Assembly: GCF_009914755.1 (NCBI RefSeq) | Contig: NC_060933.1 | From: the human T2T-CHM13v2.0 reference genome, Homo sapiens | DNA length: 64,000 bases | Direction: 5' to 3' (one strand) | Shown: positions 53,131 through 58,727 of the stretch, one piece after another | How the letters are laid out: each line of letters begins with the position of its first letter | Position numbering within the stretch: position 1 is the first letter of the stretch | The notes under the pieces: generated by a model | What the model saw: the letters and a program-made list of their open reading frames with translations, nothing else | What the model was told of the DNA's origin: nothing | Database searches by the model: none | Translations under genes and position numbers: made by a program

Positions 53131-54248
53131 GAATACTGCTCTAATTTTAATCACTAGGTACAACTATTTTCGAGGGTAAAGCTTACAGCTATCTTTGTTT
53201 ATACTTTTTCTCTCAATCAAATCATAGATAGCAGAGCCAATTCAAATTTAACTTCCCCAATAAATCCAACACAATATGTTATGTTCCTGCGCAATGAGAT
53301 AAAAGCTAGTCCATATTTAAAACTAAAATAAAATTTCAAAAATGAATAAAAATATGTCCTTCAAGGTTTTCCATCAACGTTAAAATCTCTCCTTAGGGGA
53401 GAAAAGGAATGAGTGTAGATAGGCCAACTGATGTGCTCTGGAAGCCACCATGTTTGTAATCTAGAGTCGAAATGGTATCCATCAAGCCAGTGGAGCCCTC
53501 TCAAATCCTGCAGAGACCTTGGCACATCTCACCAGGAGCTCCCCCGAGTCACCCCCACCAGGGCTGGAGCTTGAGCTCGTCACTGTGATACTCATGGGCA
53601 AGCTAGGGAATCCAGTTCTGCCCAGCTATGTCCCCCCTCCCCAACCTGAACAAGAACCTCAAGGCACCAGGCACTCCTCTGTCCAGCTCATCACCTGAAA
53701 CAACAGAGGTCTCATCACAGTAAATAAAAATCAAGTATATACCCATCTGCTTGTGCGGCAAATGGCTCTTACCCATAGGCGCCACCTACTGACCTCCAGG
53801 TCAAACTGCACAGACCAATATAAAACCTGCAGACAGAATCGCGCAGGGCCTTAGAAGCGAACCCAAAAGACCCTACCCAACATACTAACGCTATAGTTAC
53901 ACCCCTAGAAGAGGTGGAAACGGGAGGTGGGGGGGACGCCCATCTAAATGAAAATAAATTCAAAAAGAAAAAGCAGTAGCCTCTCTAGATGAGAAGAAAC
54001 CAACATAAAAATTCTGGCACCATGAAAAATCTAAATGTTGTGACATCACCAAAGGGTCACACTAGCTGTCTAGCAACAGACCTTAACCAAATAAAAACTC
54101 AGAAACGGCAGATAAATAATTCAGAGTATGGACTGCAAGCAAGCTCAATGAGATCCAAGAGAAGGTTGAAAACTCAACACAATGAAACCAAGAAAGTAAT
54201 CCAAGAAATGAGGAAAGAGACTAATATCCTTTAAAAAACAAAAACAGA

Positions 54249-54888
54249 GCCCGCCTAGCTGAGGCGCGCAGGCAGCAGCCGTTGCTGCGACGCCTCTGGT
54301 GTACTAAATCTGGAGGGGAGGTTGGGCCCTCGAAGAGAAGGAGAAGACTCTCAAACCTTGGCTAACGGCGACGTAGCTGGCTTTTTGGAGAGGCCGCCTA
54401 ACGTTCTGCCACTTCATTGGAATCAGCCTCCGCCCTTCTCAACTGGCTGCTGCGGGGCCAGTGGTGCCGGGAGACGACGGCGGGCGCTCAGGCACGGTTC
54501 GAACACTCTGGGGACTCTTTCCCTGAACTATAAAAATTCTCAAACACTGCATACACAGAGAGGATAGGAGACATGGCATTTGTGGATAGGGAAAGAGGAA
54601 ATTTTGCGATAGGACAGCTGTAGATCCTGTTGCGGACACCCAGCCGGGCAGTTGGAGGCGGGGTCAGTCCAGAAGCCTTCAGATAACACCAGGGTGTAGC
54701 CCTGGCGAGAAATCTTCAGTTGCTTCAGGACCTTTTCTAGCCCCACGCGACGGCTAGGTCCTCCGTGAGAGAAAACTGGTTCGAGAAGCATGGCCAACAT
54801 TCCCAATGATCCGCAGATGTGGTTTCCACCTGGCCGGTGCCATGACACCGGCACACACGGCGACAAGGAGAAGGGAGAAGAAAACCTC
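54249..54888 (+). other. 5'-transduced CpG-rich sequence co-mobilised with the SVA
   Basis: Non-L1, non-SVA sequence between the left TSD (about 54235-54248) and the SVA hexamer; L1 ORF1 resumes only after the SVA tail. Confidence 0.8.
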
Positions 54889-56715
54889 GCCCTCTCCCTC
54901 TCCCTCTCCCTCTCTCTCCCCACGGTCTCCCTCTCCCTCTCTTTCCACGGTCTCCCTCTGATGCCGAGCCGAAGCTGGACTGTACTGCTGCCATCTGGGC
55001 TCACTGCAACCTCCCTGCCTGATTCTCCTGCCTCAGCCTGCCGAGTGCCTGCGATTGCAGGCGCGCGCCGCCACGCCTGCGTGGTTTTCGTATTTTTTTG
55101 GTGGAGACGGGGTTTCGCTGTGTTGGCCGGGCTGGTCTCCAGCTCCTAACCGCGAGTGATCCGCCAGCCTCGGCCTCCCGAGGTGCCGGGATTGCAGACG
55201 GAGTCTCGTTCGCTCAGTGCTCAATGGTGCCCAGGCTGGAGTGCAGTGGCGTGATCTCGGCTCGCTACAACATCCACCTACCAGCCGCCTGCCTTGGCCT
55301 CCCAAAGAGCCGAGATTGCAGCCTCTGCCCGGCCGCCACCCCGTCTGGGAAGTGAGGAGCGTCTCTGCCTGGCCGCCCATCCTCTGGGATGTGAGGAGCC
55401 CCTCTGCCTGGCTGCCCAGTCTGGAAAGTGAGGAGCGTCTCTGCCTGGCTGCCATCCCATCTAGGAAGTGAGGAGCGCCTCTTCCCCGCCGCCATCCCAT
55501 CTAGGAAGTGAGGAGCGTCTCTGCCCCGCCGCCCATCGTCTGAGATGTGGGGAGCGCCTCTGCCCCGCTGCCCCGTCTGGGATGTGGGGAGCGCCTCTGA
55601 CCCGCCGCCCCGTCTGGGATGTGAGGAGCGCCTCTGCCCGGCCGCGACCCCATCTGGGAGGTGAGGAGTGTCTCTGCCCGGCCGCCCCGTCTGAGAAGTG
55701 AGGAGTCCCTCTGCCCGGCAGCCGCCCCATCTGAGAAGTGAGGAGCCCCTCCATCCGGCAGCCACCCCGTCTGGGAAGTGAGGAGCGTCTCTGCCCGGCA
55801 GCCACCCCGTCCGGGAGGGAGGTGGGGGTCAGCCCCCGCCAGGCCAGCCGCCCCATCCGGGAGGGAAGTCGGGGGGGTCAGCCCCCCGCCCAGCCAGCCG
55901 CCCCATCTGGCAGGGAGGTGGGGGGGTCAGCCCCCCGCCCGGCCAGCTGCCCCATCCAGGAGGGAGGTGGGGGGGTCAGCCCCCCGCCCGGCCAGCCGCC
56001 CCGTCTGGGAGGTGAGGGGCGCCTCTGCCCGGCCGCCCCTACTGGGAAGTGAGGAGCCCCTCTGCCCGGCCAGCCGCCCCGTCTGGGAGGGAGGTGGGGG
56101 GGTCAGCCCCCCGCCCGGCCAGCCGCCCCGTCTGGGAGGTGAGGGGCGCCTCTGCCCGGCCGCCCCTGCTGGGAAGTGAGGAGCCCCTCTGCCTGGCCAC
56201 CACCCCGTCTGGGAGGTGTACCCAACAGCTCATTGAGAACGGGCCATGATGACAATGGCGGTTTTGCGGAATAGAAAGAGGGGAAAGGTGGGGAAAAGAT
56301 TGAGAAATCGGATGGTTGCCGTGTCTGTGTAGGGAGAAGTAGACATGGGAGACTTTTCATTTTGTTCTGTACTAAGAAAAATTCTTCTGCCTTGGGATCC
56401 TGTTGATCTGTGACCTTACCCCCAACCCTGTGCTCTCTGAAACATGTGCTGTGTCCACTCAGTGTTAAATGGATTAAGGGCGGTGCAAGATGTGCTTTGT
56501 TAAACAGATGCTTGAAGGCAGCATGCTCCTTAAGAGTCATTACCACTCCCTAATCTTAAGTACCCAGGGACACAAACACTGCGGAAGGCCGCAGGGTCCT
56601 CTGCCTAGGAAAACCAGAGACCTTTGTTCACTTGTTTATCTGCTGACCTTCCCTCCACTATTGTCCTATGACCCTGCCAAATCCCCCTCTGTGAGAAACA
56701 CCCAAGAATGATCAA

Positions 56716-56746
<31 letters not shown>

Positions 56747-56765
56747 AACAAAAACAAAACAAAAC
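54889..56765 (+). mobile_element. SVA retrotransposon (D/E-like), full length, antisense to TTC39B
   Basis: (CCCTCT)n hexamer 54889-54945, Alu-like domain, GC-rich VNTR (about 55320-56215), SINE-R, AATAAA and (AAAT)n/(AAAAC)n tail; right TSD aaaacaaaaaacaga at about 56766-56780. Confidence 0.96.
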
Positions 56766-58727
56766 AAAACAAAAAACAGAACTTCTGGAAATGAAAAATT
56801 CACTTAAGAAATTTCAAAATACAGTTGAAAGTTTTAACAATAGACTGGACCAGGCAGAAGAAAGTATTTCAGAGCTTAAAGACCTCCAATTCATATCACC
56901 AACTAATAATTTTTTAAAAAATAGCTTGAAGACCCATCTTTCAAATTAACCCAAACAAAAATAAAGAAAAAAGAATTTTTAAAAATGAACAAAGCATTTC
57001 AGACATACAGGATTGTGCAAAGCAACCAAACCTATGGCTTATAGGCATTCCTGAGAAGGAAGAAGAAAAAGTAAGCAACCTGGAAAATATATTTGAGGGA
57101 ATAATTCAGGAAACTCCCTAATCTTTCTACAGAGGTGAACATACAGATACAAGACATTCAGAGAACACCTGCAAGACACTATGCAAGACGAACTTCACCA
57201 AGGCATATAGTCATCAGACTATCCAAGGTCAACACTAAAGAAAAAATTTTAAAGGCAACTAGAAAGAAGGGTCAAATCACCTACAAAGGAAAACCCATCA
57301 GACTAACAGCAAACTTCTCAGCAGAAACCCTACAAACCAGAAGAGATTGGGGTCTATTTTTAGCATCCTTAAAGAAAAAAAAATGCCAGCCAAGAATTTC
57401 ACATCCTGCCAAACTAAGCTTCATCAATGAAGAAGAAATAAAATATTTTCTAGACAAGCAAATACTAAGGGCATCTGTCACCACAAGACCTATCCTACAA
57501 GAAATGCTGAAGGGAATTCTAAACATGGAAATGAAAGGACAATACTCACCATCATAAAAGAACACGTAAGTGCAAAGCTCACAGATCTTATAAAACCATT
57601 ACACAATTGAAACTCCAAAACAACTAGCTAACAACACTATGACAGGAATAAAACCTCACATATCAATACTAACCTAAATGTAAATGACCTAAATGCCCCA
57701 CTTAAAAGATATGGAGTAGCAAACTAGTTTTTTAAAAAAAATACAAGACCCAACCATCTGCTGCCTACAAGTGACCCACCTACTGGCTAAAGATACCTTT
57801 CGACTCAAAGTAAAAGGGAGAAAGAAGACATAAAATGAGAATGGAAAACAAAAGTGAGCAGGAGTGACTATTCTCATATCAAGTAAAACAGACATAAACC
57901 AACTAACAGTAAAAAAAGACAAAGAAGGACATTATGTATAATGATAAAGGATTCAATATAACAAGAAGATTTAACTATTCTAAATATACATGCAACCAAT
58001 ACTGGGGCACCCAGATTTATCAAACAAATGCTACTAGACCTAAGAGAATAGACTGATATCAATACAATTATAGTGAGGGACTTCAACACCTCCACTGACA
58101 TCACTAGACAGATCATCGAGGCAGAAAATCAACAAAGAAACTTGGGACTTAACTGGGTTACAGACCAAATGGACCTAAAAGACATTTATAGAACATTCTA
58201 CTGAACAACCACAGAATATATATTCTTTTCATTTGTGCATGGAACATTCTCCAGAATCAACCATATACTCAGCCACAAAGCAAGTCTCAATAAAATCAAA
58301 TAAATGAAAATCATATCAAGTATTTTCTCATACCAGAGTGGGATGAAATTAGAAATCAATCCCAAGAAGAACTCTCAAAACTATACAAGTACATGGAACC
58401 TAAACAACTTGCTCCTGAACAACTCTTGGGTAAACAATGAAATTAAGGCAGAAATAAAAAAATTCTTTTAAATGAATGAAAACAAAGACACAACATACTA
58501 AAACCTCTGGTACACAGCAAAAGCAGTGCTAAGCGGAAAGTTTATAGCATTAATTAAACGCCTACATCAGAAAGACAGAAAGACCTCAAATTAACAACCT
58601 AACATCACAACTCAAGGAACTAGAAAAACAAGAACAAACCAACCCAAAGCTAGCAGAAGAAAAGAAATAACAAAGATCAGAACAAAACTAAATGAGATTG
58701 AGACAAAAAAAAAAAGGCAAGGACTCA

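What the first reader, a model, noticed from the sequence alone, without database searches (positions are those of the whole stretch)
54235..56780. SVA carrying about 640 bp of 5'-transduced, CpG-island-like sequence into a TTC39B intron
Seen: host L1 ORF1 stops at ...aatatcctttaaaaaacaaaaacaga (54248) and resumes at aaaacaaaaaacaga|acttctggaaatgaaaaattcac (56766 on). The TSD pair therefore encloses the SVA and also 54249-54888, a CpG-dense block (gaggcgcgcaggcagcagccgttgctgcgacgcc...) resembling a gene's first exon/5'UTR. Established: SVAs transcribed from upstream cellular promoters mobilise 5' flanks (5'-transduction groups, e.g. MAST2-SVA_F1). Here the hexamer is intact and I do not recognise the block as MAST2 exon 1. 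Inference: it derives from a source SVA driven by another promoter and delivered a GC-rich TSS-proximal sequence antisense into TTC39B, possibly an antisense promoter or methylation-sensitive element.
Basis: partly seen in the sequence, partly recalled or inferred. Interest (0 to 1): 0.8.

Follow-up and report, generated by a model that had tools for sequence, protein, structure and literature searches.

The report
SVA carrying spliced chr11 exons
A full-length SVA retrotransposon in a TTC39B intron brought with it a 639-base copy of three spliced exons from a chromosome 11 transcript, which is a real but ordinary example of a known way that SVAs shuffle host sequence.

Summary
A full-length SVA on the + strand and the 640 bp ahead of its hexamer repeat sit inside one target-site duplication. 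They interrupt an old L1 ORF1 that is contiguous in paralogous L1 copies.

The block is not one first exon. It is a processed copy of three exons of a minus-strand chr11 transcript: 264, 300 and 75 nt, with 16 substitutions in 639 and no indels. Both joints have canonical GT..AG introns at the source. Exon 1 lies in a CpG island about 12.5 kb upstream of the HYLS1 coding exon, on the opposite strand. Exon 2 derives from an interspersed repeat.

The third piece ends at a non-splice position, followed by 2 filler bases and then the hexamer. CHM13 has no SVA at that chr11 site, and no other SVA shares the block.

Best reading (about 0.6): spliced 5' transduction, or exon trapping, from a source SVA that is now absent. 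Rival (about 0.25): reverse-transcriptase template switching.

The element is in hg19 and is catalogued as hs_SVA_DR. RefSeq places two alternative TTC39B first exons antisense on and beside the block, so promoter activity is plausible but untested. This is a known kind of event, of low to moderate interest.

The parts
53400..54248 (+). Upstream part of the host L1 (5'UTR/ORF1 region), interrupted at 54248
   Evidence: The ORF1-like frame ends ...NIL*KTKT. It aligns to paralogous L1 copies up to the insertion point. The 53400 start is approximate and was not mapped.
54233..54248 (+). 5' copy of the target-site duplication (aaaaaacaaaaacaga), preceded by ttt (tt/aaaa-type L1 endonuclease site)
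   Evidence: It is present once in L1 paralogs.
54249..54512 (+). Copy of exon 1 of a minus-strand chr11 transcript (T2T chr11:125916322..125916059). CpG-island sequence that starts just downstream of CCAAT/ATTGG boxes at the source.
   Evidence: 98% identity, E 1e-124. The source has the donor ggg|gtgagt. GC is 0.63 and CpG o/e 0.80 for 54249-54500. The source CpG island spans chr11:125915800-125917150.
54513..54812 (+). Copy of exon 2 of the chr11 transcript (chr11:125903430..125903131), derived from an interspersed repeat
   Evidence: 98% identity. The source has the acceptor aacag|gact and the donor gatcc|gtgagt. The other 37 of the 41 matches are repeat copies at 76-82% identity. The 17 fetched copies all align within 54512-54805.
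54813..54887 (+). Copy of 75 nt that follow a splice acceptor on chr11 (chr11:125902569..125902495). It ends at a non-splice position.
   Evidence: 96% identity. The source has the acceptor ctcttattag|gcagatg and continues ...aaaacct|atttgttgtat, with no GT.
54888..54889 (+). Two filler bases (cg) between the chr11-derived sequence and the hexamer repeat
   Evidence: The alignment ends at 54887.
54890..54959 (+). SVA (CCCTCT)n-type hexamer region, retained
   Evidence: TRF rows 54885-54941 and 54899-54959.
54960..55320 (+). SVA Alu-like region
   Evidence: 54889-55320 aligns at 93.5-96% to the 5' ends of 5 other SVAs. GC is 0.62-0.66 and CpG o/e 0.57-0.87 in 200-bp windows.
55321..56218 (+). 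SVA VNTR
   Evidence: TRF finds periods of 37-49 and 127 nt, 21.9 copies of a 40-mer.
56219..56712 (+). SVA SINE-R. It is the only SINE-R in the window and is listed in print as hs_SVA_DR.
   Evidence: 98% identity to 39 other SVAs. There is a single copy in the window. Damert 2018, Additional file 2, has the row chr9:15234531-15235027.
56713..56765 (+). Polyadenylation signal (AATAAA at 56714) and a degenerate A-rich tail, (AATA)n(AAAAC)n
56766..56780 (+). 3' copy of the target-site duplication (aaaacaaaaaacaga)
56781..57500 (+). Downstream continuation of the host L1 ORF1
   Evidence: The frame reads ELLEMKNSLKKFQNTVESFNNRLDQAEESISELKD. L1 paralogs align from base 1 of this flank.
54357..54886 (-). 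RefSeq alternative TTC39B exon, antisense to the chr11-derived block. It reads as a first exon.
   Evidence: Hub annotation row. No AG lies upstream (GGGCGA|) and the donor is GTTTGAGA. It has in-frame stops and no coding extension.
53794..54249 (-). RefSeq alternative TTC39B exon that starts at the insertion boundary and runs antisense through the L1. It reads as a first exon.
   Evidence: Hub annotation row. No AG lies upstream (GGCGGG|) and the donor is GTCAGTAG. It has no in-frame ATG.

Best explanation
One L1-mediated retrotransposition event inserted a chimeric RNA or cDNA into an old L1 in a TTC39B intron. The insert consisted of a 639-nt spliced leader from a minus-strand chr11 transcript joined to a full-length SVA_D-type element.

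The most likely way the leader was acquired is spliced 5' transduction (exon trapping). In this model a source SVA once sat in sense orientation inside the chr11 transcription unit, immediately after ...GAAAACCT (T2T chr11:125902495). That position is 75 nt downstream of a good splice acceptor. Transcription started at the chr11 CpG-island promoter. Exons 1 and 2 were spliced to that acceptor. The transcript then ran on through the SVA and was polyadenylated at the SVA's AATAAA. L1 ORF2p nicked ttt/aaaaaa in the TTC39B-intron L1 and copied the whole RNA, which produced the 15-16 bp TSD.

Shown here: co-insertion, the spliced origin, the source locus, and single-copy status. Inferred: that a source SVA existed at the chr11 site and has since been lost or is absent from this haplotype.

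Secondary inference: the CpG-rich insert (chr11 exon 1 plus the SVA 5' end) now lies at the start of two RefSeq alternative TTC39B first exons. It may contribute promoter activity for N-terminally shortened isoforms.
For: **The block maps to three chr11 pieces in order.** All are on the minus strand and colinear: q1-265, q264-565 and q565-639, at 98, 98 and 96% identity.

**The joints are splice junctions at the source.** The chr11 sequence reads ggg|gtgagt...aacag|gact and gatcc|gtgagt...ttattag|gcagatg. The spliced join aligns to the block with 16 substitutions, 0 indels and one unaligned end base over 639 nt.

**The third piece starts at an acceptor and ends at a non-splice site.** It begins behind a pyrimidine tract and ends at cct|attt, directly before the SVA 5' end. 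This is what read-through into an adjacent element gives.

**The chr11 breakpoint suits an L1 endonuclease target.** The A-rich string gag/aagaaaacct precedes it (by eye).

**Everything lies in one insertion.** A single TSD and a single A-rich tail enclose it, with no poly(A) after the block. The L1 is contiguous in paralogs.

**Both copies have drifted since the event.** Of 7 exon-2 differences, 3 are derived in the window, 2 are derived on chr11 and 2 are ambiguous.

[quoted passage not shown] In a 2025 set, 58 of 543 non-reference SVAs carried a 5' transduction only (PMC12593883, section 7).
Against: **No source SVA at the predicted site.** CHM13 has no SVA there, nor within 5 kb downstream of it.

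**The only nearby SVA is not the source.** It lies at chr11:125890613-125893607, on the opposite strand. It has its own TSD inside an L1 ORF2. Its SINE-R is 95.7% identical to the window's, against 98% for unrelated SVAs.

**No sibling element.** No SVA with the same leader exists in CHM13. The exon-1 query hit 2 of 2 places, the window and the source.

**The junction does not discriminate.** Two unexplained bases (cg) lie at the junction. A G directly before the hexamer would also fit a cap-derived base at a template switch.

**Some tension on age.** The 2.5% divergence (16 of 639, 7 of them transversions) is rather high for an element that the published table lists without a chimpanzee or gorilla position.

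**Against the block being a promoter by itself.** The CCAAT boxes of the chr11 island lie outside the copied part. The two RefSeq 5' ends coincide with the block's borders, which could reflect truncated cDNAs.
Confidence: 0.6

Rival explanations
1. Reverse-transcriptase template switching. An independent, capped SVA RNA was copied to its 5' end during target-primed reverse transcription. ORF2p then jumped onto a mature spliced chr11 RNA, 75 nt into its third exon, and copied it to its cap. This would give the same leader-SVA chimera without any SVA ever having been on chr11.
For: No SVA lies at or near the chr11 breakpoint in the right orientation. The SVA part is full length up to the hexamer, with 2 filler bases (c, g) at the joint, as non-templated additions or a cap-derived G would give. 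The chimera is a single copy. Template switching is a published route for L1 chimeras (PMC13174262, passages) and was proposed for an SVA-CKS1B chimera (PMC12593883, Fig. 3d legend).
Against: It needs a landing inside an RNA rather than at its 3' end. The breakpoint shows at most 3 nt of possible microhomology (cct). The chr11 transcript looks like a low-abundance non-coding RNA with repeat-derived exons, whereas known donors are mostly abundant RNAs. The breakpoint is preceded by an A-rich string that would suit an L1 endonuclease target for a former SVA. From my recall of the Damert 2009 abstract, 5' transductions affect about 8% of SVAs and are far commoner than such chimeras.
Confidence: 0.25
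2. The two RNAs were joined before reverse transcription by trans-splicing or RNA ligation. Alternatively, the SVA lay further downstream in the chr11 unit and was joined by a non-canonical splice.
For: These routes are listed for L1 chimeras (PMC13174262, Fig. 7 legend passage). An SVA does exist about 9 kb downstream of exon 3.
Against: The joint has neither a GT donor on the chr11 side (cct|attt) nor an AG before the hexamer. The nearby SVA is on the wrong strand, has intact TSDs of its own, and is only 95.7% identical in the SINE-R.
Confidence: 0.07
3. Two independent insertions. A processed fragment of the chr11 RNA and an SVA landed side by side by chance, or the block is ancestral sequence of the site.
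For: None found.
Against: The block has no poly(A) tail and no TSD of its own. Its 3' end abuts the hexamer with 2 bases between. One TSD pair encloses both. L1 paralogs read straight through the site without the block.
Confidence: 0.02

Closest known systems
5'-transducing SVA groups that carry parts of spliced mRNAs (Damert et al. 2009, Genome Res; Hancks et al. 2009 'exon-trapping'). Neither paper is held here. They are known to me from recall of the abstracts and from citations in PMC6139936 and PMC12593883.
   Same: Host sequence lies 5' of the SVA inside the same TSD. It derives from an upstream cellular promoter and includes exons joined at canonical splice sites. Mobilisation is by L1.
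   Different: This is a single copy rather than a group. No source SVA is present at the donor locus in CHM13. At 639 bp the leader is longer than the mean of 172 bp for 5' transductions of non-reference SVAs. I could not check whether this element is in the 2009 inventory.
SVA_F1 (MAST2 exon 1 fused to SVA_F)
   Same: A CpG-rich first exon of a host gene is placed at the 5' end of an SVA through RNA processing and then retrotransposed.
   Different: In SVA_F1 the exon is spliced into the Alu-like region and replaces the hexamer and most of the Alu-like part. That family has at least 84 reference copies (PMC12593883, passages). Here the hexamer and Alu-like region are intact, the joint is not a splice junction, three exons are carried, the source is chr11, and the SVA is D-type.
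Chimpanzee pt_SVA_D6 (STK40 exon 1 fused to SVA_D) with added exon transductions (PMC6139936)
   Same: An SVA_D-type element carries spliced exons of host genes at its 5' end.
   Different: pt_SVA_D6 is a 94-member subfamily in which the exon is joined to the Alu-like domain. The present element is a human singleton with the hexamer retained.
Template-switch chimeras (U6/L1 and others; SVA-CKS1BP)
   Same: Two RNAs in the same orientation lie within one TSD, with no donor-locus adjacency needed.
   Different: In SVA-CKS1BP the mRNA part lies 3' of the SVA. U6/L1 chimeras have 5'-truncated L1 parts and an abundant small RNA as partner. Here a spliced polymerase II transcript lies 5' of a full-length SVA.

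Membership tests
SVA with 5' transduction (spliced / exon-trapping type) | Non-SVA sequence lies directly 5' of the SVA and inside the same target-site duplication, with one poly(A) tail | tested here: met
   with L1 paralog read-through.
SVA with 5' transduction (spliced / exon-trapping type) | The extra sequence maps to one other locus, in the same orientation as the SVA, and begins at a promoter | tested here: met
   chr11 minus strand at 96-98% identity. The 5' end lies in a CpG island behind CCAAT/ATTGG boxes. A transcription start there was not tested because no CAGE data were available.
SVA with 5' transduction (spliced / exon-trapping type) | The pieces are joined at canonical splice sites of the source locus | tested here: met
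   GT..AG at both joints. The spliced join aligns without indels.
SVA with 5' transduction (spliced / exon-trapping type) | A source SVA lies immediately downstream of the transduced sequence at the donor locus | tested here: not met
   There is no SVA at chr11:125902494 or in the 5 kb beyond it in CHM13. The SVA 9 kb away is on the other strand and is not closely related. Other haplotypes and apes are not testable here.
SVA with 5' transduction (spliced / exon-trapping type) | The leader is shared by sibling elements (a transduction group) | tested here: not met
   The exon-1 query gave 2 of 2 hits, the window and the source. The full block has no further full-length hit among 41 matches.
SVA_F1 (MAST2-SVA) | MAST2 exon 1 replaces the hexamer and most of the Alu-like region | tested here: not met
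   The hexamer and Alu-like region are present. The leader maps to chr11 only. The SINE-R is sorted as hs_SVA_DR in print.
Canonical full-length SVA mobilised by L1 | Hexamer, Alu-like, VNTR, SINE-R, AATAAA and A tail, a TSD of 4-20 bp, and a TT/AAAA-type target | tested here: met
   The hallmarks are as listed in PMC3287187 (passage).
Template-switch retro-chimera | The junction shows non-templated bases or microhomology, and no donor-locus adjacency of the two parts | tested here: inconclusive
   There are 2 filler bases and up to 3 nt of possible microhomology. No adjacency exists in CHM13. A lost source SVA predicts the same pattern.
CpG island (Gardiner-Garden and Frommer criteria, recalled: at least 200 bp, GC at least 0.5, o/e at least 0.6) | Length, GC content and observed/expected CpG | tested here: met
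   The block is 640 bp with GC 0.57 and o/e 0.70. The exon-1 part has GC 0.63 and o/e 0.80. The exon-2 part is weaker (o/e 0.41 in one 200-bp window).

The most novel reading that the evidence does not exclude
SVA 5' transduction moved a fragment of a chr11 CpG-island promoter region (on the HYLS1 side) into a TTC39B intron. There, together with the CpG-rich SVA 5' end, it created a lineage-restricted alternative promoter. Two RefSeq first exons start at its borders on the TTC39B strand. They would give transcripts whose first in-frame ATG lies in the exon at 47575-47480, that is, N-terminally shortened TTC39B. This would be promoter shuffling by an SVA acting on a gene that I recall as linked to HDL cholesterol.
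Probability: 0.25. Interest if true: 0.5.

Novelty: new member of a known kind. Interest (0 to 1): 0.27.

Why it matters
The element is a clean, fully resolved example of an SVA picking up spliced host exons and a piece of a CpG island and moving them to another chromosome. It shows that the donor element can vanish while its offspring stays.

Its practical interest is local. The insert coincides with two annotated alternative first exons of TTC39B, so it may be a young, possibly human-specific source of transcript diversity at that gene. It opens no new class of mechanism. SVA 5' transductions with spliced exons were inventoried in 2009, and this element is probably in that list, which I could not see.

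Tried and rejected
1. **The nearby chr11 SVA as source, possibly separated by an inversion.** Rejected. It is on the + strand. It has its own TSD, AAGAAA(T/C)GGGG, inside a contiguous L1 ORF2. Its SINE-R is 95.7% identical to the window's (21 mismatches in 489), against 98% for five unrelated SVAs.

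2. **PUS3 or DDX25 as the source gene (recalled gene order).** Rejected. No long coding ORFs were found on the minus strand between exons 1 and 2. Pfam on 16 ORFs gave only retroviral Gag_p30 and integrase zinc-finger hits, plus weak sub-threshold DUF hits. The HYLS1_C domain lies at chr11:125928828-125929091 on the + strand. I therefore describe the source only as a divergent transcript from a CpG island about 12.5 kb upstream of the HYLS1 coding exon. Its gene name was not established.

3. **MAST2 origin.** Rejected.

4. **The two RefSeq exons as one transcript with a 107-nt intron (54250-54356).** Rejected. There is a GT donor but no AG at the acceptor side.

5. **A coding contribution from the alternative first exons.** None. 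They carry in-frame stops or no ATG.

6. **Literature.**
   - No paper held joins TTC39B or C9orf52 with SVA in a relevant way, and none joins HYLS1 with SVA.
   - Damert 2009, Hancks 2009 and the Hancks and Kazazian 2010 review are not held.
   - A supplement search of the 2025 paper failed on term syntax and was not repeated, so its Table S4 was not examined.

8. **SVA subfamily.** I did not derive it from the sequence myself. I built no consensus and took the published assignment.

Full report
**The observation**

An old L1 on the + strand is interrupted after ...tttaaaaaacaaaaacaga (54248) and resumes with acttctggaaatgaaaaattcac at 56781.

The two sides carry a target-site duplication at 54233-54248 and 56766-56780. 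Its last 9 nt are identical, and 15-16 nt match if one A-run differs by a base. The target, ttt/aaaaaa, is an L1-endonuclease-type site.

The L1 reading frame continues across the gap...NIL*KTKT | ELLEMKNSLKKFQNTVESFNNRLDQAEE.

I blasted both flanks against 7 paralogous L1 loci. The flanks abut in L031-L033 (0 nt by extrapolation), lie 2 nt apart in L030 and 5 nt apart in L029. L029 and L031 read through with one copy of the duplicated string. The block is therefore not L1 sequence, and the site was contiguous before the insertion.

**Anatomy of the insert**

| Part | Window coordinates | Basis |
|---|---|---|
| Extra block | 54249-54888 (640 bp) | |
| Filler (cg) | 54888-54889 | |
| Hexamer repeat | 54890 to about 54959 | |
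| Alu-like region | to about 55320 | |
| VNTR | 55321-56218 | |
| SINE-R | 56219-56712 | |
| AATAAA | 56714 | |
| Degenerate A-rich tail | to 56765 | |

The SINE-R is 98% identical to all 39 other scored SVA copies. The 5' 432 bp aligns at 93.5-96% to the 5' ends of five other SVAs, so the hexamer and Alu-like parts are intact.

No poly(A) and no second duplication separates the block from the SVA.

The block is CpG-dense, with GC 0.57 and o/e 0.70. Its first 252 bp reach GC 0.63 and o/e 0.80. The L1 flanks have o/e 0.27 and 0.08.

**What the block is**

A search of the window's own assembly found the block in three separate pieces on the minus strand of chr11.

| Block bases | T2T chr11 (minus strand) | Identity |
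|---|---|---|
| 1-265 | 125916322..125916058 | 98% |
| 264-565 | 125903430..125903129 | 98% |
| 565-639 | 125902569..125902495 | 96% |

At the source the pieces are bounded by canonical splice signals: ggg|gtgagt ... aacag|gact, and gatcc|gtgagt ... ctcttattag|gcagatg. Joining the pieces at those sites reproduces the block with 16 substitutions and no indel over 639 nt.

The block is therefore a processed, intron-less copy of the first 264 + 300 + 75 nt of a chr11 transcript. It is not a single first exon.

- **Exon 1** lies in a CpG island (chr11:125915800-125917150). It begins about 25 and 80 nt downstream of a CCAAT and an ATTGG box.
- **The HYLS1 link.** The only HYLS1_C domain in the genome is at chr11:125928828-125929091 on the + strand. 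The island therefore lies about 12.5 kb upstream of the HYLS1 coding exon, and the source transcript runs away from it. I could not name the source gene.
- **Exon 2** derives from an interspersed repeat. The other 37 of the 41 matches are copies at 76-82% identity. The 17 copies I fetched all align within 54512-54805.
- **Downstream of the third piece** lies an endogenous retrovirus remnant (Gag_p30 and integrase zinc-finger hits).

**The decisive joint**

The third piece starts at a good acceptor but ends where chr11 continues ...aaaacct|atttgttgtat. That is not a splice donor. In the window the same point is followed by cg and then the hexamer.

This is what one expects if an SVA once lay at that exact chr11 position in the same orientation as the transcript. 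The RNA would have spliced exons 1 and 2 to the acceptor 75 nt upstream of the SVA, run through the SVA and ended at its poly(A) signal. The A-rich string before the breakpoint (g/aagaaaacct) would suit an L1 endonuclease target (by eye).

CHM13, however, has no SVA at that site or in the 5 kb beyond it.

**A false lead**

The CpG scan showed a very GC-rich stretch 9 kb further on. It is an SVA at chr11:125890613-125893607. It is not the source, for three reasons:
- It is on the opposite strand.
- It has its own duplication, AAGAAA(T/C)GGGG, within a contiguous L1 ORF2.
- Its SINE-R is only 95.7% identical to the window's.

It is neither the source nor evidence for an inversion.

**Copy number and age**

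The exon-1 part hits 2 of 2 places in the genome, the window and its source.

The 2.5% divergence is split between the copies. Of the 7 exon-2 differences, repeat paralogs show 3 derived in the window, 2 derived on chr11 and 2 ambiguous.

By the recalled human-chimpanzee divergence of about 1.2%, this suggests an event several million years old, possibly older than the human-chimpanzee split.

The element is in hg19. Damert 2018 (PMC6139936, Additional file 2, part 20 seen) lists hs_SVA_DR chr9:15234531-15235027. The row has no chimpanzee or gorilla position, and it follows the rows that do carry such positions. I read that as 'scored human-specific', but I did not see the sheet's header. The window holds only one SINE-R, so the row must be this element.

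The two datings are in mild tension. Seven of the 16 differences are transversions, and three C/G changes lie within 29 bp (54478, 54493, 54506). I have no explanation for that cluster.

**Mechanism and rivals**

That one retrotransposition event delivered a leader-SVA chimera is, in my view, nearly certain. How the chimera formed is less certain.
- **Spliced 5' transduction from a lost or non-fixed source SVA (about 0.6).** This is a described kind. [quoted passage not shown] In PMC12593883, section 7, 58 of 543 non-reference SVAs carried a 5' transduction only, with a mean length of 172 bp.
- **Template switching of ORF2p from the capped 5' end of an SVA RNA onto the spliced chr11 RNA (about 0.25).** It explains the absent source SVA and the 2 filler bases equally well. 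It is a published route.
- **RNA ligation, trans-splicing or a non-canonical splice (below 0.1).**
- **Two independent insertions.** Effectively excluded.

**Effect on TTC39B**

The SVA and leader are antisense to TTC39B. The hub's RefSeq table lists two exons of other TTC39B transcripts at 54357-54886 and 53794-54249.

On the minus strand neither has an AG before it (GGGCGA| and GGCGGG|). Both end in GT donors (GTTTGAGA and GTCAGTAG). They therefore read as two alternative first exons, not one transcript with a 107-nt intron.

They add no coding sequence, because they carry in-frame stops or lack an ATG. The first in-frame methionine is in the exon at 47575-47480 (...[10 protein letters not shown]...). 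Such transcripts would encode an N-terminally shortened protein. This assumes that they splice to that exon, which I did not verify.

Their 5' ends fall exactly on the block's borders. One lies next to the G-rich antisense hexamer and the CpG-rich SVA 5' end. The other lies next to the antisense of chr11 exon 1. This fits promoter activity of the insert. It would also fit cDNAs truncated at structured, GC-rich sequence.

The copied part of the chr11 island lacks that island's CCAAT boxes, which argues against the block being a self-sufficient promoter. No expression, CAGE or chromatin data were available.

**Comparison and novelty**

The element works like the published spliced 5' transductions. 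It resembles SVA_F1 and chimpanzee pt_SVA_D6 in placing a CpG-rich first exon ahead of an SVA. It is not a member of those subfamilies:
- The hexamer and Alu-like region are kept.
- The joint with the SVA is not a splice junction.
- The leader comes from chr11.
- It is a D-type singleton.

I found no paper that links TTC39B (or C9orf52) or HYLS1 with this SVA. The 2009 inventories (Damert; Hancks) are not held, and their supplements may well list it.

I rate it as a new member of a known kind. It is well resolved, and its interest is modest.

Noticed in passing
L025:3114-6108 (T2T chr11:125890613-125893607, + strand): A full-length SVA sits inside an L1 ORF2 with its own TSD, AAGAAA(T/C)GGGG. 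It lies 9 kb from the donor site of the leader but on the opposite strand. Its SINE-R is 95.7% identical to the window's SVA. By my rough estimate from a recalled SVA density, chance proximity has a probability of about 3%.
   Followed up: yes
L021:1036-2280 and L025:8502-9194 (chr11, minus strand): An endogenous-retrovirus remnant (Pfam Gag_p30 in two adjacent ORFs, plus an integrase zinc-binding domain) lies just downstream of the third exon piece of the chr11 source transcript. The source transcript seems to be built largely from repeat-derived exons.
   Followed up: partly
window 54513-54812: The middle exon of the leader belongs to an interspersed repeat family. The other 37 of the 41 matches are copies at 76-82% identity, and the 17 fetched copies all align within 54512-54805. 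I did not name the family.
   Followed up: partly
window 54478, 54493, 54506: Three C (window) versus G (chr11) transversions lie within 29 bp at the 3' end of the exon-1 copy. Overall, 7 of the 16 differences are transversions, which is more than the usual share. This is unexplained.
   Followed up: no
window 53794-54249 (minus strand): A RefSeq alternative TTC39B first exon runs antisense through the host L1's ORF1/5'UTR and starts exactly at the SVA-insertion boundary. Its donor, GTCAGTAG, is at 53793.
   Followed up: partly
window 53400-53700: The 5' part of the host L1 is GC-rich (0.51-0.58) but CpG-poor (o/e 0.13-0.21). This is consistent with an old, decayed L1 5'UTR.
   Followed up: no
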